From positions 39,501 to 103,500 of the IMG/VR virus record IMGVR_UViG_3300018080_000129: a stretch of 64,000 nt of DNA; one strand, given 5' to 3'. Below are positions 35,835 through 57,551 of this stretch, in pieces (position 1 is the first letter of the stretch; each line of letters starts with the position of its first letter). The notes under the pieces are model-generated. The model did not search any database and was not told the origin of the DNA. It saw nothing but the letters and a program-made list of their open reading frames with translations. Origin of the DNA: a virus. Position numbers and translations under genes: made by a program.

Positions 35835-35866
35835 AAAAAAATTCCCGCCCATTTCTGAGCGGGAAT
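35835..35866 (-). terminator. intrinsic terminator after TROVE gene
   Basis: ATTCCCGCTCAGAAATGGGCGGGAAT followed by a T run. Confidence 0.75.
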
Positions 35867-35885
35867 CACCGGCAACAGCGTATTT

Positions 35886-37685
35886 TTAGAACTTCTGGCG
35901 AATCTGCTCGATGGTGGGAATCTCTTCCTCAGCCATCACGCCTTCGGTCTGCAACAGCATTTGGATGATTTTCTCGCTGAAACCTCCAACGAGATTGACC
36001 TTCTCCTTCTTTTCATCTACAATACTGTCACCATAACCATGCAGATTGACAGAGTGCAGCCACGTATTGGCAGACTGCTTGCTTCTTTTGTAACGCTGCC
36101 ATGCGTCTGCCACATTGCTGCTGCTGCCACCATACCCATAACCATAACCGTCCGTCCAGCACTGCATATCGCTGAGCAGAATAATTCGGTCAGGATGCGC
36201 ATTCTTCCTAATCAAATACTCAAAGCAAAGATGTCCATTCGTGCTGCATCCATTCGTATTGGCATTCGCCAGCTTCTTTACCATCTCCATCACGCTCGTG
36301 CGCTTCGTGTAGGAAACAGGCGCAACAGCCGTGGCGAATGCGGCCACAATGGACTTCTCCGAACGCTTCGCACAAATTGCCGCCAGTGTGTTCGCAGCGT
36401 TCTTGCAGGACATCTTGCTTCTGTCTGACACAGCAGACTCCATCGAGCCACTGTTATCCGCGAAGACTGCGGTCTCGCCAGTCAGAAAAGGCACGTTCTC
36501 GCAAGCCGCCTCAGCCGCATCCTCGATGGCTTCCAGCACAGTCTTCAGCTTGGAGTCATCAATCGTTTCCCGCTCATCCTCATAGCCGTAACCGTAGCCA
36601 TGCTGAGAGCCAAAACCCTGAAGCATCTCGTAAGCCATCGTGAAACGGAAAGGCAATTGCTTGCTCCGCAGCACTTCTTCCTTGTCCGACAACTTCTTCG
36701 CCACAGCGTCGATGACTTTGGAACTTACATCTGTTTTCATCAAGTTCCGCAGATTCCGCAAAAGGGCCATATACCCGACCAGATTCTTCTCAATCAGGTA
36801 TTCCCATACTTCGCGCTTGGTTTTGTCATCGCGGCCAAACTGAGAAAGCACAACTTCCCAATTCGCCAATGACTTCGCAACAAGCTCCTTGGCCTTTTTG
36901 TCGAATTTCTCCTGCTTCGTCATTTCCCTACGAGCGAAAGCGACAGGAGTTCCCTCTTCGTCCACTTCGCCTTTGATGAAATACTTGCAAACCGCATCAG
37001 GAAGAGGATAATCCTTCTTTCTCTTCCTCACAAGCCGGAGTACATCCTTGAAAGTAGGATAGCCAGGGCTATCATACTTCATCAGGCCGCGCTCATTGAA
37101 CTTGTGAAGAGCGTCTCCAATTCCACGGCTCAAGCAGTTCTTGAGGCTCTTGCTGCCAAAGAAATACTTGTGCAGGGCCACGACCGTCTTGACCTCATCA
37201 GGACGCCGGATAATTTTCGTAGCATACTGGCGCACATACTCCTGACAATTCTCATGGGCCGAAGCCAGCACGAGAAGAACTTGAGGAGTGAGACGAATGT
37301 TCATCTCATTGCGCAGCCAGTTCGCGATTGCCAGCGCGTCACGGGGATTCTCCGTACCCATGATGTCTACCGCCGTAGCGATAACTTCCTGAGCCACGTC
37401 GTCCAAATCACCAGCATCGACAAACTTGGCCTTTTCCCTGACAATGCGCAGCCTCTCAGCCAACTTGGAGTATTTTCCAGCCGCCCCCCTCTTCGCCACA
37501 ACGGAATCACCATTGTAGTATCGAGGTTCGGAAAAAAAGGAGCCTCCCGTCATGGTAATCAGCTTCGTAGCAGGGCACTGAATCTCAAAAGCCACACCGC
37601 CTGCCCTGTTGACTGTGGCATTCGCAGCCTTCGAAGCTTTGTTCTTACCAACTCTCGACTTTAGTTTCTTCTTCATTGTTCCCAT
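35886..37685 (-). CDS. TROVE-domain RNA-binding protein (Ro60/Rsr-like) with vWA domain
   Basis: VNRAGGVAF, LRNEMNIR, IIRRPDE, GYMALLRNLRN, SKQLPFRF, MIDAS DNSGSM, IILLSDMQ, VNLHGYG, GFSEK. Confidence 0.9.
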   Translation of the reverse strand: MGTMKKKLKSRVGKNKASKAANATVNRAGGVAFEIQCPATKLITMTGGSFFSEPRYYNGDSVVAKRGAAGKYSKLAERLRIVREKAKFVDAGDLDDVAQEVIATAVDIMGTENPRDALAIANWLRNEMNIRLTPQVLLVLASAHENCQEYVRQYATKIIRRPDEVKTVVALHKYFFGSKSLKNCLSRGIGDALHKFNERGLMKYDSPGYPTFKDVLRLVRKRKKDYPLPDAVCKYFIKGEVDEEGTPVAFARREMTKQEKFDKKAKELVAKSLANWEVVLSQFGRDDKTKREVWEYLIEKNLVGYMALLRNLRNLMKTDVSSKVIDAVAKKLSDKEEVLRSKQLPFRFTMAYEMLQGFGSQHGYGYGYEDERETIDDSKLKTVLEAIEDAAEAACENVPFLTGETAVFADNSGSMESAVSDRSKMSCKNAANTLAAICAKRSEKSIVAAFATAVAPVSYTKRTSVMEMVKKLANANTNGCSTNGHLCFEYLIRKNAHPDRIILLSDMQCWTDGYGYGYGGSSSNVADAWQRYKRSKQSANTWLHSVNLHGYGDSIVDEKKEKVNLVGGFSEKIIQMLLQTEGVMAEEEIPTIEQIRQKF

Positions 37686-37727
37686 GACTGTCCTCCTTTC
37701 ATCTCATCTCTGGCTATAGTGCCTTCC

Positions 37728-37763
37728 AAAAAAAAATGGGAAACACTCAGAGAATGCTTCCCA
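37728..37763 (-). terminator. intrinsic terminator inside the TROVE 5' leader
   Basis: TGGGAAGCATTC-TCT-GAGTGTTTCCCA followed by T9. Confidence 0.8.
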
Positions 37764-37813
37764 CTGCGTCCCGCCAGCAGACAGAATCTAATGGCGGCAA
37801 TGAAAAGAAATCT

Positions 37814-37881
37814 GAGTACCAATAAGCGCAGTAGCGGTTTCTTTCTCTATGATAGAAGTATGCCACTGCTGGAGCGTACTC
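37814..37881 (-). ncRNA. Y-RNA-like motif, copy in TROVE leader
   Basis: GAGTAC-GCTCCA-GCAGTGGC-ATACTTC...GCTACTGC-GCTTATTG-GTACTC; same scaffold as the three copies at 51874-52439. Confidence 0.7.
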
Positions 37882-37912
37882 TTTTCAATCCACACACTTT
37901 TATAAGTGCGAC
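37882..37912 (-). CRISPR. solitary type I-C-like CRISPR repeat
   Basis: GTCGCACTTATAAAAGTGTGTGGATTGAAAA: 5' GTCGCAC, hairpin, 3' GTGGATTGAAA. Confidence 0.65.
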
Positions 37913-37928
37913 TCTATATTAACGTAAT

Positions 37929-37956
37929 ATTATACAGCAGAGTTCGAACTTTTCAA
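37929..37956 (-). promoter_or_regulatory. sigma70-type promoter
   Basis: TTGAAA-16 nt-TATAAT; predicted start about 10 nt before the repeat. Confidence 0.6.
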
Positions 37957-51697: not shown

Positions 51698-51774
51698 TGG
51701 TAGCGGGAGTCGGATTCGAACCGACGACCTTGAGGTTATGGGCCTCACGAGCTACCAGACTGCTCCATCCCGCA
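51698..51774 (-). tRNA. tRNA-fMet(CAU)
   Basis: TGCGGGATGGAGCAGTCTGGTAGCTCGTGAGGCCCATAACCTCAAGGTCGTCGGTTCGAATCCGACTCCCGCTACCA; 1:72 mismatch, initiator-type D arm. Confidence 0.92.
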
Positions 51775-51788
51775 CCATTCCAATCAAA

Positions 51789-51862
51789 TCTCTCACTGGC
51801 CGAAGATAACCATCTCAGGCGTGTGAGGAGGACGAAAGAGAGGAGTATCAACCAGTGAGAGA
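51789..51862 (-). ncRNA. stem-loop RNA with pyrimidine-rich loop
   Basis: TCTCTCACTGGTTGA...TCGGCCAGTGAGAGA 15-bp closing stem. Confidence 0.5.
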
Positions 51863-51873
51863 AAGTAAAAGAA

Positions 51874-51969
51874 GATTCAGTACCGATGGTCGAAGAGAGA
51901 ACATACGTGGTAAACCACGTCTCAATATAGATTGAATTGAAGTAACTCTCTTCTGGAGCGTACTGACTC
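51874..51969 (-). ncRNA. Y-RNA-like motif, copy with two small hairpins
   Basis: TCAGTAC-GCTCCA-GAAGAGAG-TTACTTC...CTCTCTTC-GACCATCG-GTACTGA. Confidence 0.7.
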
Positions 51970-52005
51970 CTTTCTTTTCGCTTCACCACACTTTCACTTT
52001 TCTTT

Positions 52006-52037
52006 CTTTCAACCCACACTTTCGCAAGGAAAGTGAA
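52006..52037 (-). CRISPR. solitary type I-C-like CRISPR repeat
   Basis: TTCACTTTCCTTGCGAAAGTGTGGGTTGAAAG: 32 nt, 7-bp hairpin, 3' TGGGTTGAAAG tail. Confidence 0.45.
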
Positions 52038-52043
52038 AAGAAA

Positions 52044-52180
52044 GCCGATACCAATAGTCGCAAAGAGAAATTTTACGTGTGCTATCTTTTACACTACTCC
52101 CCATCAAAGTTGGGGAGGCAGGAGTTGCACCTGCACCACGTCCGTATGATGGAAGTAACTCTTCGCTGGAGCGTATCGGT
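52044..52180 (-). ncRNA. YrlA-like Y RNA with circularly permuted tRNA domain
   Basis: Shared scaffold enclosing T arm GCAGG-TGCAACT-CCTGC, loop-closed acceptor stem CTCCCCA/TGGGGAG, TA linker and D arm GTG...CAC. Confidence 0.8.
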
Positions 52181-52201
52181 TTCCTGTGCTATAAAAGAAC
52201 T

Positions 52202-52439
52202 TTCGATACCTAAGGTCGAATAGAGGATTACGCTACACAGCGTAGTGCCGTCTCTCCAGCAATGTCACCGTTCTTTCACGGTCTGTCGTCGGATACTTTG
52301 ACCCGCAGTCAGCGAAACTTTCCTCGCAGCCATCATGGGTTTTAGCCCATGAGCAAAGCCCGTCTTTCCGAGCATGTCAGGAGTTCCACTCCTTTTCACA
52401 TAATCAATGTGAAGTATCTCTACTCTGGAGCGTATCGAA
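52202..52439 (-). ncRNA. Y-RNA-like motif, copy enclosing nine hairpins
   Basis: TTCGATAC-GCTCCA-GAGTAGAG-ATACTTC...CTCTATTC-GACCTTAG-GTATCGAA. Confidence 0.7.
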
Positions 52440-52489
52440 GCGTTCTTTGTTTTCAAAGAGCGTTTATCCCTCTATCTCTTGTACGTCAT

Positions 52490-52518
52490 ATTATACCATT
52501 TTCGACAGACTTTTTCAA
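52490..52518 (-). promoter_or_regulatory. sigma70-type promoter of the RNA operon
   Basis: TTGAAA-17 nt-TATAAT with extended -10 TG. Confidence 0.75.
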
Positions 52519-52526
52519 GTTTTTTT

Positions 52527-52557
52527 CAAAAAAAACCCCGACTGTGTGTCGGGGTCA
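52527..52557 (-). terminator. intrinsic terminator
   Basis: GACCCCGAC-ACACA-GTCGGGGTT followed by a T run. Confidence 0.8.
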
Positions 52558-52641
52558 TGCTCGGCTTTAGGGGTGGGAACCGAGCAATTGAGAAGGGAGA
52601 AGAGGGTAAAACGCTTTGCTAAAACATGTTATGATTCCTTT

Positions 52642-53706
52642 TCAAGATACAAAACTGACAACTTTAAGCAAGGAAGAACAATCTGCCTTGCCACTAACCC
52701 TGCCACTCTCCCATTGAATAGCATCTGGAAACATCTTCTTCAAACCAAGAAAAACCTTCTTGTTTATCTCGAAGAAGCTCTCATCAGGATACTGCTCATG
52801 GAAAAGTTTCAACTTGGCCGTCTTCTTTGGATGTCTCCAGCCGGTAATCTCGACGTATAGTTCAAAGTCAGGCAAGTAAAGGTCGGGCAAGTATGAATCT
52901 ACTGTTTCCCCCGCTTGCCGCAAATAGAACTTTCTCGGTTCGTAGAGATACTTGATGCCAAAATATTTCAGAAGGCGACAAACATCGGCCTCCCAAGTGG
53001 AGCGAACGAAATGACCAATGTCTAAACGATAGCCTGACTTTCCAACTCCAGAACCCTTAGCTGGCTTGTGACCAACTATCTTTTTCGCTTGCGCTGCTAC
53101 CTTCTTGCTTGTCTCCTTCGTTAAACCTTTATTCCAAGGGCCACCATGCTTTTCAGCATTAACTTTGCCACCTTGAGAAGACCAACGCTTTCGCTGCTCC
53201 TTAGTATATCTCCTGTTAATTGTTTTTCTTGCTTTTCGAGCAGACTCCTTTGTAGTTTTCGGCAAAGAAAGAGCCTGCTGTTTCAACCGTCCAGCATATT
53301 CAGAGTCGTTCTTGATTCTTTCACGTTTTGCCTTGGATATTCTCTCAGCCCAATCCTTGCTCTCTTTCGGGCACTTCTTGTGCCACAACGAGATTTTCTT
53401 ACCTCGCTGCTTTTTCTCCTTCGCGGAGAGTCCAGCATGATACTCCGTCATATACTGGCATCGAATTTCCGCAAGACCCTTATTCATACACTCCGAGGAA
53501 CAATATGTCCTTCCTTTTCTTACCTCACAAGGACGAACCTGAACCATCTTGCCACAATATTTGCAAGTGAATGTCGCTCTCTTAATCTTCGCCAAGCCAG
53601 TGCATTTGAAAGAACAATACTTGCCAAGACCCTTCGCAACTTTGTAACGCAGGGCCTCAAATTCTTTACCGCAATAATGACAGTTGACTTTGACAAGACC
53701 TGACAT
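52642..53706 (-). CDS. putative homing endonuclease (Zn-finger repeats, NUMOD3-like, PD-(D/E)XK)
   Basis: CxxC...YCSxxC twice, PWNKGLTKET, RSTWEA...YEP...YLPDLYL...YVEITG. Confidence 0.75.
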   Translation of the reverse strand: MSGLVKVNCHYCGKEFEALRYKVAKGLGKYCSFKCTGLAKIKRATFTCKYCGKMVQVRPCEVRKGRTYCSSECMNKGLAEIRCQYMTEYHAGLSAKEKKQRGKKISLWHKKCPKESKDWAERISKAKRERIKNDSEYAGRLKQQALSLPKTTKESARKARKTINRRYTKEQRKRWSSQGGKVNAEKHGGPWNKGLTKETSKKVAAQAKKIVGHKPAKGSGVGKSGYRLDIGHFVRSTWEADVCRLLKYFGIKYLYEPRKFYLRQAGETVDSYLPDLYLPDFELYVEITGWRHPKKTAKLKLFHEQYPDESFFEINKKVFLGLKKMFPDAIQWESGRVSGKADCSSLLKVVSFVS

Positions 53707-53721
53707 ATTTTTATCCTGAAA

Positions 53722-54159
53722 CTACTCCTTAATTTTAGGAGTATGAGTCTCAAGCCACTTCTTTGACCTCCACATTGTCGTCATGTAAATTCTGTCGGCC
53801 AGCGACCCGCACACGGCTCCAACATCGTCAAAATGAGGTTTAAGTTTCTTCATACACTCCGTAACCTTATGTTCCGCATTTCCTGTCAGTGTTTTCCAGA
53901 ATTTCACCAGACTTTTCCTCGTCCAGCCCTTCGGCAATTTGCTCCAAGGCTTCTTCGCAGTCCTCACTATCTCATCAATCAACGCATCCTCCTGAGCTTG
54001 AATGATGATGGAAGCTCTCAATCCCTTCCATTTCTTCTGCCGAATTTTCTCAGCGCAGTCAGGGCAGAAAAGCTCAACCTCGTCAGCCGTCAAAAGTCTG
54101 TCAGGGTCGGCCAGAATCAAGTCCTTGGCAATGTCTACGAGTTCCTCAGTTACATTCAT
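53722..54159 (-). CDS. hypothetical protein with N-terminal amphipathic leader
   Basis: MNVTEELVDIAKDLILA; CPDC. Confidence 0.7.
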   Translation of the reverse strand: MNVTEELVDIAKDLILADPDRLLTADEVELFCPDCAEKIRQKKWKGLRASIIIQAQEDALIDEIVRTAKKPWSKLPKGWTRKSLVKFWKTLTGNAEHKVTECMKKLKPHFDDVGAVCGSLADRIYMTTMWRSKKWLETHTPKIKE

Positions 54160-54160
54160 C

Positions 54161-54502
54161 TCATGTCTCCTGACCATTTTTCAATATCAGAAATGGCGTA
54201 TCGTTCAAGGCCACTTCCAATGTTTCCTTGATGGCCTCTTTCAGATTCCAAGCGACCTCTATCGTAACTTCTGCTTTGAAGTTTACGCTATTATCTCTCT
54301 CGTCATAGCCAGCATTCCGAATTCCGTTGACCGTGACTTGAATGCTGTCCATCTCAAGAAGCAGGTCAAAATTAGTGTTGACATAAAGTTGAGCCTGATT
54401 CTTGACCAGCCTGTGAACCAACATCTTCAACATGTTGTCGGGAAGTTCGCCACCCGTTTCAGGAATAGTACCGTTCACTTCCCTCTTCAGTTTTACGTTC
54501 AT
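54161..54502 (-). CDS. hypothetical protein
   Basis: ORF within the operon. Confidence 0.6.
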   Translation of the reverse strand: MNVKLKREVNGTIPETGGELPDNMLKMLVHRLVKNQAQLYVNTNFDLLLEMDSIQVTVNGIRNAGYDERDNSVNFKAEVTIEVAWNLKEAIKETLEVALNDTPFLILKNGQET

Positions 54503-54788
54503 TTGCTAATTTCCTAATCTCTTTCATAGGATTGTATTTTCCTTCGAGTTCAAGGTGGTACTTCTCATCGCGAATAAGCCAGAAATCCTCAGCAATGTAA
54601 GCAAATACCTTGCTGAGCTTCTCGGCTATGTGCTTTGTTATTCTCTCCCTGCCCGTCATAATGGCGCGAAGCTTGCTTGGTTTCATGCCAAGTCTTTTTG
54701 CCAGCATTCTTCCTGAAATCCTCTTGGCTTTCATCTCCTCCTGAATGGTTTCGCCCGGAGGAGATACGTATGTCGGCCTCGCTGCCAT
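54459..54788 (-). CDS. HigA-family XRE HTH (antitoxin-like)
   Basis: SPPGETIQEEM...LAKRLGM...IMTGRERIT..IA.KLSKVF....FWL....KY.L. Confidence 0.8.
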   Translation of the reverse strand: MAARPTYVSPPGETIQEEMKAKRISGRMLAKRLGMKPSKLRAIMTGRERITKHIAEKLSKVFAYIAEDFWLIRDEKYHLELEGKYNPMKEIRKLANERKTEEGSERYYS

Positions 54789-54817
54789 TGTTTGATTCTC
54801 CTATACTAATATAAGCT

Positions 54818-55180
54818 TTATAAAAGATTTGTCAATACTTTTTCCATTCGATTCCAATCGCAAGGCTTGGGTACAACGGATAGAACATTCTTAATCACCT
54901 TTATCCTGCTCTTGTTCCTTTCGTTGACAAATGCAGTAACAAAAACGATGGGAGTCTGATTGCCCTGCCGCCTCAGGTCTTCAGCAAAAGTAATCCCGTC
55001 CTTACCCGGCATATTGATGTCCAGAGAAATCAAGTCAAAACTCGAATCCTCAAGCTTCTTTTCCGCTTCGCTCACAGAATTGACCTCGACTGCCTCCATG
55101 CCAAGAGTTCCAAACTGGTAAGATAATACCTCCGTAATCGAAGGCTCATCATCCACAACAAGAACTTTCTTTGCATCCAT
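54818..55180 (-). CDS. single-domain response regulator
   Basis: VLVVDDE, DLISLDINMPGKDG, IVFVTA, KP. Confidence 0.9.
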   Translation of the reverse strand: MDAKKVLVVDDEPSITEVLSYQFGTLGMEAVEVNSVSEAEKKLEDSSFDLISLDINMPGKDGITFAEDLRRQGNQTPIVFVTAFVNERNKSRIKVIKNVLSVVPKPCDWNRMEKVLTNLL

Positions 55181-55308
55181 GAAAAGCCCCTAACAGTGAA
55201 AGGAAGGGCCTCTCCCTCTACTATTATACACAGACGATAAAGGAAATGTGAAAAGAAAAAGGGAAGCCATTCAAAGCTTCCCAAGGTATGCTTTTAGAAA
55301 AGTAGTGC

Positions 55309-56184
55309 TTAAAAAATTAGAGCACCACTCTTCTGCCAGTCATAGCGCAAGTGATTATCAGGGCAGAAAATCAACTGCCGAATCTCTCCATCCTTGCTCG
55401 GATAGGTCAGGCAATTGTTCAGGCAGACATTCTGGTCGTTCAAGTCATAGACGACGGCTCCATGCGGCAATCGAAGCAACTCCGTCCCTTTCTTGCACAG
55501 AAACTCCTCCAGTCCGGCTTCCGCAGAACAAACCTTATGCTTGTCCACCCATTGTTTGACATGCTGACCTTTCCATGTTTCTTCCGGCTCCCCAAGTTCG
55601 CGCACTGTCAACTGGTCAACCTTCAAATCCCTACAAACCTCAACAAGCTTCTTCAGGCGGTCAACATTGTCCACATGGCCCTTGCAAATGACACAGGAAA
55701 CGCGAACCATGAAACTATGCTGCTTGAGAATTCTGCATGATTCGTTCCAGTTGAATTTCGGTTTGTTGTCCGTCATCAAACGAGCATTGTTCTCAGGCTC
55801 GATGTCTCCTATCGAGAGACACACAGAAGTCAGACCAAAATATTTCCAAGTCTCCAGATAACGATTCTGGAAATCATCATCCTCGAAAACAATGCCATTG
55901 GTCTGCAACTCGATAAGAGGAAACTCATGCTGGCGCAAGACAGAAAGAAATGTCGTAATCTGCTGTGGAAAAAGAGTAGGCTCACCTTTGCCGGTGAAAA
56001 GGGCGGTTGTGATACCATGTGCTCTTGAATACCTACAAGCCGCTTCGAATGCTCTCCAATCGACAACTGGAAGCTCTTTCTCCATGCCAAAGCTTGGCGT
56101 CATCTTCGAGACGCAATAAGGGCATCTGGCGTTACAAGCGCGTGAACCTGTCACAATGGAAAGAGTTGTCGCCTCAATTTTCAT
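55309..56184 (-). CDS. radical SAM protein
   Basis: CNARCPYC, TGKGEP, ELQTNG. Confidence 0.88.
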   Translation of the reverse strand: MKIEATTLSIVTGSRACNARCPYCVSKMTPSFGMEKELPVVDWRAFEAACRYSRAHGITTALFTGKGEPTLFPQQITTFLSVLRQHEFPLIELQTNGIVFEDDDFQNRYLETWKYFGLTSVCLSIGDIEPENNARLMTDNKPKFNWNESCRILKQHSFMVRVSCVICKGHVDNVDRLKKLVEVCRDLKVDQLTVRELGEPEETWKGQHVKQWVDKHKVCSAEAGLEEFLCKKGTELLRLPHGAVVYDLNDQNVCLNNCLTYPSKDGEIRQLIFCPDNHLRYDWQKSGALIF

Positions 56185-56196
56185 TTGCTTCTGCCT

Positions 56197-56484
56197 TTAC
56201 TTCACAAAGCCAATTTTGCCTTTTGGTGCCTCTGGAGTATTCCAAACTCGATGCTCATCCAATTGTGCCTTCATCGGTTTGCGAAGGTCATAAACCTCCA
56301 TGACCCGCTGCATATTCTTGCCATTATATTCTTTTACTTTCTGAAGGCATTCCGCATCGGTAGCCACGTAAGTAGGATAGTCTTCGTGGTCAAAACCATC
56401 ACAGACCACAATCAGGTATGCCTGTTTCTCTTCCTTGCCTCTTTCAAACCAGCCTTGAATATCTTCTCTTGTTGTAGCCATCAT
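56197..56484 (-). CDS. hypothetical protein
   Basis: ORF with RBS. Confidence 0.7.
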   Translation of the reverse strand: MMATTREDIQGWFERGKEEKQAYLIVVCDGFDHEDYPTYVATDAECLQKVKEYNGKNMQRVMEVYDLRKPMKAQLDEHRVWNTPEAPKGKIGFVK

Positions 56485-56505
56485 ATTGTCCTTGTAAGGA
56501 AAACT

Positions 56506-57141
56506 CTAAATCGCAGCCAACAATTTAGCCACTGAGAACCTTGTATTCTTGTTCACCCTGATTCTTACAACCTTCCAGCCTTTTGATTCTGCAAATTCAT
56601 CCTTCTCTGCATCTTTCTGTGCCATAACAGTCCACTCATGGTCTTTGCCGTCAAACTCCAAAAACAATTTCCTATCTGGCAAAGCTAAATCAAAGACATA
56701 TCGACCAAGAGGATACTCTGGCTCGAATCTTTCTCCTCTTGATAGAAAAAATTTCTTCAACTCTTCATACTTCCAAGACTCCCTTGTTCTTAAACCCTTC
56801 GCAATGACAGCTATATCGTTAATTGCTCCAACATTCTGAGAACCCATCTCACGAGCTTTCTCCCTGCGATATTTGGTCACACTACCCGCAGAAGCACACC
56901 CTCTCGAACAAAACGTAGCCTCTGTTTTGCCCGTTCTTGTCTTAAAAGATTTGTCGCAGTAAGGACATGTCTTCTCTATCTCTCTTGTCCTGTTCTCGCG
57001 ATTATCATTACCGTACTTAGCAGAGCAAGAACGAGAACAGAAAAATCTTTCCCTACCTTTTCTTACTTGCCGGTTATATTCTGCCTTGGAAAGAAGAAAA
57101 GGCTTAGAACAATAGCTGCATTCAAGAGGAACACTACTCAT
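56506..57141 (-). CDS. Zn-finger + DUF559/Vsr-like endonuclease
   Basis: CxxC...FCSRxC twice; YVFDLA...LEFDG..H....D..KD......GWKVVRI. Confidence 0.8.
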   Translation of the reverse strand: MSSVPLECSYCSKPFLLSKAEYNRQVRKGRERFFCSRSCSAKYGNDNRENRTREIEKTCPYCDKSFKTRTGKTEATFCSRGCASAGSVTKYRREKAREMGSQNVGAINDIAVIAKGLRTRESWKYEELKKFFLSRGERFEPEYPLGRYVFDLALPDRKLFLEFDGKDHEWTVMAQKDAEKDEFAESKGWKVVRIRVNKNTRFSVAKLLAAI

Positions 57142-57159
57142 CAATTTCTCCAAAGAAAA

Positions 57160-57515
57160 TGGTGGAGGCGGCGAGGAGTCGCACCTCGCGTCCAGTGGTG
57201 CTCTCGATAGGGCGTCTACACGCTTATCCAGTTGATTCTATATCTCGGCTCATCTGGCAAGCCTCAGGCGGCTGTTTACCCGCCACGTCAGGCCGTCTTT
57301 CCAGCCTGCCAACCTGTCTTTCCAAGCTGCCAGCCCTTGTGTCGTACCCTATTCCCGCTTACTAAGGACGAATCTCAACGGTTTTGGGGCTGCCTAAGCA
57401 GCGATTCTGTAGGAGTTGCCAAGTAAATGGCATAGTCGGCTTTTTACGAGGCCAACCGACCAACCTCGACGTGCAGCCATTCTCGATACGCATCCTGTCG
57501 ATACTACGCGCCCCC
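57160..57515 (-). ncRNA. ssrA: tmRNA
   Basis: 5' GGGGGCG...TCGAC; 3' GCGAGG-TGCGACT-CCTCGC-CGCCTCCACCA with G3:U70; internal tag frame GNSYRIAA* at 57394..57420; 356 nt. Confidence 0.92.
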
Positions 57516-57522
57516 AATTGTC

Positions 57523-57551
57523 GTTTCAATCCACGCCCTCACACGGGCGAC
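57523..57551 (-). CRISPR. solitary type I-C-like CRISPR repeat
   Basis: GTCGCCCGTGTGAGGGCGTGGATTGAAAC (29 nt), ending 7 nt before the tmRNA. Confidence 0.65.

What the first reader, a model, noticed from the sequence alone, without database searches (positions are those of the whole stretch)
37728..37956. Probable Ro60 autoregulatory attenuator
Seen: promoter, CRISPR-like repeat, minimal Y-like motif, hairpin, strong intrinsic terminator, then the TROVE RBS and ATG. The sequence CGCAGTGG (37761-37768) duplicates the 5' strand of the motif's stem2 and overlaps the first 3 nt of the terminator stem. It can pair with stem2' (CTACTGCG, 8 bp), so the two folds are mutually exclusive. Inference: free Ro60 stabilises the Y-like fold and allows termination. 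When Ro60 is titrated by the Y RNAs, the antiterminator forms and the gene is read. The overlap with the terminator is short, so the switch strength is uncertain.
Basis: partly seen in the sequence, partly recalled or inferred. Interest (0 to 1): 0.8.

Follow-up and report, generated by a model that had tools for sequence, protein, structure and literature searches.

The report
Y-like RNA and terminator before phage Ro60
Just upstream of a large phage's Ro60 gene lies a small Y-RNA-like gene that ends in a strong transcription stop signal and shares the Ro60 gene's only recognisable promoter. The layout is real and interesting, but the RNA switch proposed for it does not hold up in folding calculations.

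Summary
Everything lies on the minus strand. All the described elements are present:
- a near-consensus promoter (37956-37929)
- a CRISPR-repeat-like hairpin (37912-37882)
- a minimal Y-like module (core 37881-37814)
- a hairpin (37797-37770)
- a 14-bp/U9 terminator (37765-37728)
- the ribosome-binding site and ATG (37685) of a 599-aa Ro60 homologue.

The Y-like module is one of six copies in this phage. The copies share invariant loops and a covarying stem.

The proposed antiterminator (CUACUGCG with CGCAGUGG) costs 11-21 kcal/mol at every transcript length and has zero ensemble probability. Its 7-nt repeat arises in 2.9% of shuffles. An alternative 11-bp pairing is energetically feasible but no better than chance (10-15%).

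No close relative with the same layout could be fetched, so conservation could not be tested.

About 50 of 60 distinct leaders (59 from relatives plus this window's own) carry a different element next to the ribosome-binding site. It is a covarying hairpin flanked by both loop strands of their own Y-like RNAs, which suggests that Ro60 binds its own mRNA. This scan had noted such copies before on other DNA. This phage lacks that element.

Best reading (confidence 0.55): a Y-like small-RNA gene with a leaky terminator, in one operon with the Ro60 gene. Ro60-responsive attenuation is possible (about 0.2) but unshown.

The parts
37929..37956 (-). Sigma-70-like promoter: TTGAAA (37956-37951), 16-nt spacer, TATAAT (37934-37929). 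The inferred start is near 37922.
   Evidence: 11 of 12 matches; one of 5 sites with at most 1 mismatch, against 0.47 expected.
37882..37912 (-). Hairpin plus GUGUGGAUUGAAAAG, a solitary CRISPR-repeat-like unit. Its 3' part is the 5' strand of the long Y stem.
   Evidence: It shares GUGUGGRUUGAAA with 52037-52006 and 57551-57523. The copy before the tmRNA scores 21.4 bits with Rfam CRISPR-DR9, below threshold. This copy gets no Rfam repeat hit.
37814..37881 (-). Minimal Y-like RNA module: stem 1 GAGUAC/GUACUC, 5' loop GCUCCA, stem 2 GCAGUGGC/GCUACUGC, AUACUUC plus a 19-nt cargo loop, 3' loop GCUUAUUG. The long stem extends to about 37893 and about 37800.
   Evidence: It is one of six copies in the genome with invariant loops and a different, complementary stem 2 in each copy.
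37770..37797 (-). GC-rich hairpin between the Y module and the terminator, about -15 kcal/mol.
37728..37765 (-). Intrinsic terminator: 14-bp stem (37765-37735), 3-nt loop, nine U (37736-37728), -18.3 kcal/mol.
   Evidence: pair probabilities 0.96-1.0 for all pairs but the outermost, which is 0.67.
37761..37768 (-).
   Evidence: the forced pairing costs +11 to +21 kcal/mol; the 7-mer repeat occurs in 2.9% of shuffles.
37797..37807 (-). CUUUUCAUUGC, the 3' end of the long Y stem. It can instead pair with GCAGUGGGAAG (37767-37757), extending the middle hairpin by 11 bp. This is an alternative candidate antiterminator.
   Evidence: probability about 0.95 in transcripts ending at 37757-37749, and only 2-4 kcal/mol better than the long-stem state; not better than chance (10-15%).
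37686..37727 (-). Spacer with a weak 3-bp hairpin (GGC/GCC, 37723-37712), a GAGAU tandem, and AAGGAGG at 37698-37692. It has no promoter and no copy of the handle seen in relatives.
   Evidence: model R1 gives no hit at E <= 10..
35886..37685 (-). Ro60 (TROVE + Ro60-type vWA) gene, 599 aa.
   Evidence: TROVE 1.3e-24, vWA_Ro60 1.9e-11; the family profile hits Ro60 structure 1yvp at 4e-17 and Rsr structure 2nvo at 1.7e-14; hundreds of homologues.
35840..35867 (-). Terminator that closes the Ro60 transcription unit. The next consensus promoter is at 35813-35786.

Best explanation
The region is a small transcription unit nested in the leader of the phage's Ro60 gene.

Shown in the sequence:
- One near-consensus promoter drives, in order, a solitary CRISPR-repeat-like hairpin, a minimal member of the phage's own Y-RNA-like family, a stable hairpin and a strong intrinsic terminator.
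- The Ro60 gene follows 42 nt later, with a good ribosome-binding site and no promoter of its own.

Inferred:
- Most transcripts stop at the terminator and give a primary RNA of about 195 nt.
- This RNA is trimmed, like its five paralogues, to a long-stemmed Y-like RNA that is the presumed partner of Ro60.
- A minority of transcripts read through and make Ro60.
- One promoter thus couples the two products, and the terminator sets an excess of RNA over protein.
- No RNA switch is needed for this.
For: - Promoter, terminator, ribosome-binding site and absence of an internal promoter.
- The unit is closed downstream by its own terminator and followed by the next promoter.
- The module belongs to a six-copy family with invariant loops, a covarying stem 2 and the same long-stem flanks (GAAAAG / UUCUUUUCA). 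Another minimal copy sits in an RNA array far from the Ro60 gene, so minimal copies exist as independent RNAs.
- All elements coexist in one minimum-energy fold (-70.5 kcal/mol, z = -5.5).
- A strong terminator within 130 nt upstream of the Ro60 start, often with no room for a promoter, recurs in 16 of 60 distinct leaders. It usually follows a tRNA-Met.
- A minimal Y-like module is the nearest upstream RNA in 10 loci. In five of them its closing stem is followed by 7-9 U.
Against: - A 14-bp/U9 terminator should leave little read-through, so Ro60 supply would be very low unless something relieves termination. That is exactly the argument for regulation.
- A phage-specific promoter type that the sigma-70 scan cannot see is not excluded.
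- No expression data exist.
- Binding of the module to Ro60 is inferred from adjacency and family resemblance only.
- Rfam Y RNA models do not match.
Confidence: 0.55

Rival explanations
1. Without Ro60, stem 2' (CUACUGCG, 37834-37827) leaves the Y fold and pairs with CGCAGUGG (37768-37761), which removes the base of the terminator. Ro60 locks the Y fold and restores termination.
For: The 8-bp complementarity exists and overlaps 5 nt at the base of the terminator stem. Losing the base of the stem would indeed weaken termination.
Against: - The forced pairing costs +10.7 to +21.1 kcal/mol at every transcript length tested.
- Its ensemble probability is 0.0, against 0.99 or more for stem 2.
- Stem 2 is local and is complete about 60 nt before the competitor is transcribed.
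- The 7-nt repeat occurs in 2.9% of shuffles.
- No relative shows it.
Confidence: 0.03
2. Ro60-responsive attenuation by another route. The 3' strand of the long Y stem (37807-37797) can instead extend the middle hairpin by pairing with the terminator's 5' arm (37767-37757). Ro60 bound to the handle would hold the long stem closed, free the terminator arm and raise termination. When Ro60 is scarce, the extended hairpin would delay the terminator. In relatives where the Y module's own stem abuts a U-run, Ro60 could stabilise that stem directly.
For: - The topology is that of a classical 1:2 / 2:3 / 3:4 attenuator.
- The extended hairpin has probability about 0.95 in transcripts ending at 37757-37749, and is only 2-4 kcal/mol better than the long-stem state, so a modest protein contribution could flip it.
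- This is the only recognisable promoter for the gene.
- Relatives keep a handle copy in the Ro60 leader, which argues that Ro60 binds its own message in this family.
Against: - The 11-bp pairing is no better than chance. 15% of shuffled flanks and 10% of genomic 16-mers do as well.
- The arm is the family-wide U-rich 3' tail of the Y modules, not a feature special to this copy.
- Five loop-proximal nucleotides of the terminator stay free as a toehold, and the terminator fold is 10 kcal/mol better overall, so displacement should be fast.
- There is no comparative support.
Confidence: 0.2
3. The unit is chiefly a CRISPR-repeat decoy or mini-CRISPR transcript. The solitary repeat-like hairpin at 37912-37882 would be recognised by a host type I-C-like nuclease. 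That would either define the 5' end of the downstream RNA or soak up Cas proteins. The Y-like module would be the passenger.
For: The copy before the tmRNA gives a weak CRISPR-DR9 match of 21.4 bits.
Against: There is no Rfam repeat match at this copy. The resemblance to I-C repeats rests partly on memory. This reading explains neither the terminator nor the link to Ro60. It can coexist with the main explanation.
Confidence: 0.07
4. The Y module acts only in cis on read-through mRNAs. Ro60 bound to the leader would change the stability or translation of its own message, for example by bringing an exonuclease, and no free small RNA matters.
For: The module persists in the predicted fold of the read-through leader. 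Y RNA tethers Rsr to PNPase in Deinococcus (abstract of PMC4201824).
Against: The module lies 116 nt (its 3' end at 37814) to 183 nt (its 5' end at 37881) upstream of the ribosome-binding site, which stays unpaired. Most transcripts should end at the terminator.
Confidence: 0.1

Closest known systems
Bacterial and phage Y RNAs next to rsr (Deinococcus Yrn1/Yrn2, Salmonella and Mycobacterium YrlA/YrlB; Chen et al. 2014, PMC4201824)
   Same: - Small RNAs encoded beside a Ro60 orthologue, in some species upstream of it and cut from a common precursor.
- A long stem made from the 5' and 3' ends, carrying a conserved motif on the 5' strand.
- Several copies per genome, some with a tRNA-like domain.
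   Different: - The handle here is GCUCCA (RCUUCA in relatives) opposite GMYUWUYG, not GNCGAAN0-1G or GGUCCGA.
- Rfam Y RNA and YrlA models give no match.
- This copy has only a 19-nt cargo loop and no tRNA-like part.
- It shares the Ro60 gene's only promoter and is cut off from the gene by a strong terminator.
Autogenous control by target mimicry in ribosomal-protein leaders (for example the L20 and L10 leaders, S15, S8)
   Same: The messenger's leader carries a copy of the RNA that the encoded protein normally binds. In Firmicutes, some of these leaders act through a terminator.
   Different: No binding is shown here. No statistically supported or conserved antiterminator was found. The copy here is a complete, typical family member rather than a partial mimic.
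Handle copy next to the Ro60 ribosome-binding site in relatives
   Same: It lies in the leader of the same gene family and uses the same two loop strands as the phage's Y-like RNAs.
   Different: In relatives the two strands flank a short covarying hairpin 0-40 nt before the ribosome-binding site. This window has no such element. Instead it has a full module about 130 nt upstream, behind a terminator.

Membership tests
Ro60-associated Y RNA | Encoded next to a Ro60 (TROVE) orthologue | tested here: met
   The module's 3' end (37814) lies 129 nt upstream of the ATG of a TROVE + Ro60-vWA protein. The family profile hits Ro60 and Rsr structures.
Ro60-associated Y RNA | Long stem formed by the 5' and 3' ends, with a large internal loop or cargo beyond it | tested here: met
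   Stem 2 covaries in the six copies of this genome, and both stems are complementary in about 70 modules of relatives.
Ro60-associated Y RNA | Conserved 5'-strand motif of the Ro60 site (GGUCCGA in animals, GNCGAAN0-1G in bacteria; PMC4201824) | tested here: inconclusive
   The invariant 5' loop is GCUCCA here and RCUUCA in relatives. It is alike in place and partly in letters, but not the published motif.
Ro60-associated Y RNA | Match to Rfam Y RNA / YrlA covariance models | tested here: not met
   No such match at gathering score or at E <= 10 in the window or in 18 related loci.
Ro60-associated Y RNA | Bound by the Ro60 protein | not testable with these tools
   Needs pull-down or gel shift.
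Transcription attenuator (protein-responsive leader) | Promoter, then a leader with an intrinsic terminator, then the gene, with no promoter in between | tested here: met
Transcription attenuator (protein-responsive leader) | An antiterminator that excludes the terminator and can compete with it energetically | tested here: not met
The other candidate (37807-37797 with 37767-37757) is feasible during transcription but no better than chance, so it is inconclusive.
Transcription attenuator (protein-responsive leader) | Alternative pairing kept, with compensating changes, in relatives | not testable with these tools
The relatives that were fetched have other leader layouts.
Handle copy by the ribosome-binding site (model R1) | WUYG, a covarying hairpin, then (R)CUUCA within 70 nt before the Ro60 start | tested here: not met
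   No hit at E <= 10 with filters off. No pattern hit with either the CUUCA or the CUCCA variant.
Type I-C-like CRISPR repeat | Repeat hairpin followed by a GGAUUGAAAN tail, recognised by CRISPR repeat models | tested here: inconclusive
   The shape and tail are present and shared by three copies. Rfam gives no hit for this copy, and the sub-threshold CRISPR-DR9 match of 21.4 bits is for the copy at 57551-57523.

The most novel reading that the evidence does not exclude
In this family of large phages, Ro60 would measure its own level through copies of its partner-RNA handle placed in its messenger. Most members put a circularly permuted handle against the ribosome-binding site, giving a translational brake. 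This phage has instead moved a whole minimal Y-like module in front of a terminator. Ro60 binding to the nascent module would then decide between the long Y stem (termination) and an extended hairpin (read-through). That would be the first Ro60-dependent transcription attenuator, and a direct test-bed for how Ro60 recognises RNA.
Probability: 0.17. Interest if true: 0.75.

Novelty: new variant of a known kind. Interest (0 to 1): 0.45.

Why it matters
Ro60 and Y RNAs are conserved from bacteria to humans, yet how cells or phages balance the protein against its RNA partners is unknown.

Here the only recognisable promoter of a phage Ro60 gene first makes a partner-like RNA and then meets a strong stop signal. 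In most relatives, the Ro60 messenger carries a copy of the partner's handle at its ribosome-binding site. Together these give simple, testable constructs for Ro60-RNA recognition and for possible feedback control.

They also add an uncatalogued Y-like RNA family with a different handle. If the terminator is merely leaky, the locus is an ordinary small-RNA/protein operon.

Tried and rejected
- Rfam at gathering score and at E <= 10 on the region, its surroundings and 18 related loci gave no Y RNA, YrlA or leader family.
- blastn of the leader against phage records gave no match. tblastn found only homologues of 30% identity or less.
- The strict Y pattern in IMG/VR gave 19 hits, none of them a Y-like RNA: 17 copies of one gene-like stretch and 2 unrelated sequences, taken as chance matches and discarded.
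- The search for related loci with the single protein found nothing. With an alignment it worked.
Relatives cannot be drawn for a virus record, and the scan index holds no look-alike.
- CACTATAG in the spacer was tested as a possible phage-type promoter core. There are only two copies in the window, so it was dropped.
- Sequestration of the ribosome-binding site in the read-through leader is not seen.
- My first two motif finders used the wrong register and were corrected.
- Matching between each phage's Y loop variant (CUUCA or GCUUCA) and its leader variant was seen by eye in some loci and not in others. It was never tallied and is not used as evidence.

Full report
**Setting**

The window is part of a 103.5-kb IMG/VR virus record estimated at 31% complete, so the phage is probably large. 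All features discussed lie on the minus strand. The ORF at 37685-35886 encodes 599 aa with a TROVE domain (1.3e-24) and a Ro60-type vWA domain (1.9e-11). A profile of it and 25 homologues hits the solved Ro60 structures of Xenopus (1yvp, 4e-17), human (9nen) and Deinococcus Rsr (2nvo, 1.7e-14). It is a Ro60 orthologue.

**Observation**

Read 5' to 3', the region holds:
- TTGAAA-16-TATAAT at 37956-37929, 11 of 12 matches. It is one of five such sites with at most one mismatch in the window, against 0.47 expected.
- A hairpin followed by GUGUGGAUUGAAAAG (37912-37882).
- A module with stem 1 GAGUAC/GUACUC, loop GCUCCA, stem 2 GCAGUGGC/GCUACUGC, AUACUUC plus a 19-nt loop, and 3' loop GCUUAUUG (37881-37814). 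Its stem 1 extends to about 37893 and about 37800.
- A GC-rich hairpin (37797-37770).
- A 14-bp terminator with nine U (37765-37728).
- A 42-nt spacer, AAGGAGG (37698-37692) and ATG (37685).

No promoter-like site lies between the terminator and the ATG. The gene is followed by its own terminator (35867-35840) and a consensus promoter for the next gene (35813-35786). The unit is therefore well bounded. The 195-nt RNA folds at -70.5 kcal/mol (z = -5.5), with all elements coexisting.

**The module is a genuine family member**

The pattern TACGCTCCAG-N7-WTACTTC occurs six times in the phage. Four copies are in the window and two lie outside it. The copies share the invariant loops, and each has a different, complementary 8-bp stem 2. 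Four have the same long-stem flanks and U-rich 3' tail. One of the outside copies is also minimal and sits in an RNA array with a tRNA-like copy and a tRNA, far from the Ro60 gene. About 70 modules of the same scaffold occur in related loci. They carry RCUUCA where this phage has GCUCCA. Rfam recognises none of them. The scaffold fits the general description of Y RNAs: a long terminal stem, a conserved 5'-strand motif and adjacency to rsr. However, it does not carry the published GNCGAAN0-1G motif (PMC4201824).

**Test of the proposed switch**

CUACUGCG (37834-37827) and CGCAGUGG (37768-37761) can form 8 pairs. Enforcing them costs 10.7 to 21.1 kcal/mol at every transcript length from 37761 to 37728. 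Their ensemble probability is 0.0, against 0.99 or more for stem 2. Stem 2 is local and is finished about 60 nt before its supposed competitor is made. The model needs the Y fold to open when Ro60 is absent, and the calculation says it will not. The shared 7-mer arises in 2.9% of shuffles of the downstream sequence, without correction for the many coincidences one could have noticed.

**A better candidate, also unproven**

Step-wise folding showed another possible pairing. CUUUUCAUUGC (37807-37797) is the 3' strand of the long Y stem. It can pair with GCAGUGGGAAG (37767-37757), extending the middle hairpin by 11 bp (-23.1 against -15.0 kcal/mol for the two hairpin segments folded on their own, the second slightly shorter). 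In transcripts ending at 37757-37749 this has probability about 0.95. It is only 2-4 kcal/mol better than keeping the long stem. That gives a classical 1:2 / 2:3 / 3:4 topology, in which a protein holding the long stem could favour termination.

Three points count against it:
- 15% of shuffled flanks and 10% of genomic 16-mers pair as well.
- The arm is the family-wide U-rich tail, not a feature special to this copy.
- Five loop-proximal terminator nucleotides remain free as a toehold, and the full-length terminator fold wins by 10 kcal/mol.

I treat it as possible, not supported.

**Relatives**

The protein has hundreds of homologues at 43-90% identity, several on contigs of 250-345 kb. An alignment-based scan gave 15 viral and 61 metagenomic loci at 44-73% identity. 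Together with this window's own leader they make 60 distinct leaders.

Three findings bear on the question.

1. A handle copy sits by the ribosome-binding site.
   - About 50 of the 60 leaders carry WUYG, a 5-9-bp hairpin, then (R)CUUCA, 0-40 nt before the ribosome-binding site.
   - The hairpin covaries strongly: 89.9% of cells paired against 66.6% in shuffles, 75 double changes, and score 0.673 against 0.221, exceeded by 0 of 500 shuffles. All slid controls are lower.
   - A strict pattern hits 29 of the 59 relatives' distinct loci within 70 nt of the start. It gives only 27 hits in the other 538 kb, and several of those are junctions between tandem Y modules.
   - The two flanks are the 3' loop end and the 5' loop of these phages' own Y modules, and the hairpin corresponds to stem 1. 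The element is thus a circularly permuted handle.
   - This suggests that Ro60 binds its own messenger there. No binding is shown. Other agents of this scan noted similar copies on other genomes.
2. The window lacks this element. The covariance model finds nothing at E <= 10 with filters off, and neither pattern variant hits. Only UUUUGG and a 3-bp hairpin remain.
3. A strong terminator recurs upstream of the Ro60 gene.
   - One lies within 130 nt upstream of the start in 16 of 60 leaders, often too close for a promoter, and usually after a tRNA-Met.
   - A minimal module is the nearest upstream RNA in 10 loci. In five of them its closing stem is followed by 7-9 U.
   - Read-through from an upstream RNA gene is thus a common way of expressing Ro60 in this family, and in those loci no alternative pairing is evident.

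**Conclusion**

What is shown is a promoter, a family-typical Y-like module, a strong terminator and a promoterless Ro60 gene, all in one bounded unit. What is inferred is that most transcripts end as a Y-like RNA and a minority make Ro60. I put 0.55 on this plain operon reading.

No paper in the library describes Ro60 autoregulation through a Y-like leader.

The locus is a new variant of the known Ro60/Y RNA arrangement. The regulatory claim awaits the experiments listed under the next steps.

Noticed in passing
L026-L101, 0-70 nt upstream of each TROVE start (e.g. L037:2949-2983, L062:2447-2483, L078:2454-2486): A conserved element sits by the ribosome-binding site: WUYG, a covarying 5-9-bp hairpin, then (R)CUUCA. 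It is a circularly permuted copy of these phages' Y-module handle, is present in about 50 of 60 distinct leaders, and is absent from Rfam. It probably marks Ro60 binding to its own mRNA.
   Followed up: yes
window 37882-37912, 52006-52037, 57523-57551 (all minus strand): Three solitary hairpin units end in GUGUGGRUUGAAA, and each sits directly 5' of a non-coding RNA (two Y-like modules and the tmRNA). They look like type I-C CRISPR repeats. Only the tmRNA copy gets a weak CRISPR-DR9 score.
   Followed up: partly
window 51698-57515 versus 37685: In many relatives tmRNA, Y-like RNAs, tRNA-Met and TROVE lie within 1-2 kb in that order. Here the same order and strand are kept, but about 14 kb (collagen-like and glycosylation genes) separates the tRNA-Met from TROVE, and a single minimal module remains at the gene.
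   Followed up: partly
G000:C1:22143-22253 (minus strand; L001): Two further Y-like copies lie outside the window: one minimal and one with a tRNA-like T-arm. They are in tandem and are followed by what looks like a tRNA.
   Followed up: partly
window (six copies) versus L026-L101: All six modules of this phage have GCUCCA in the 5' loop, whereas about 70 modules in relatives have CUUCA. This is a lineage-wide change of the presumed Ro60 contact site.
   Followed up: partly
L078:2300-2450 and L101:650-800: The closest fetched relatives have no Y module before TROVE. After a promoter-like site they have two hairpins with CUCCAA(A) loops, followed by the handle by the ribosome-binding site.
   Followed up: no
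L031, L032, L058, L094, about 60-90 nt upstream of TROVE: A palindrome CAATGTTC-N6-GAACATTG next to a -10-like GATAAT lies between the terminator and the handle. It may be an operator-controlled promoter.
   Followed up: no
window 37700-37711 (minus strand): A tandem GAGAU GAGAU sits just before the ribosome-binding site, where relatives have the 3' half of the handle. It may be a slippage scar.
   Followed up: no
window 52165-52217 (minus strand): The junction between two tandem Y modules weakly matches the leader-handle model (E = 5.5). This hints that the leader handle arose from such a junction.
   Followed up: no
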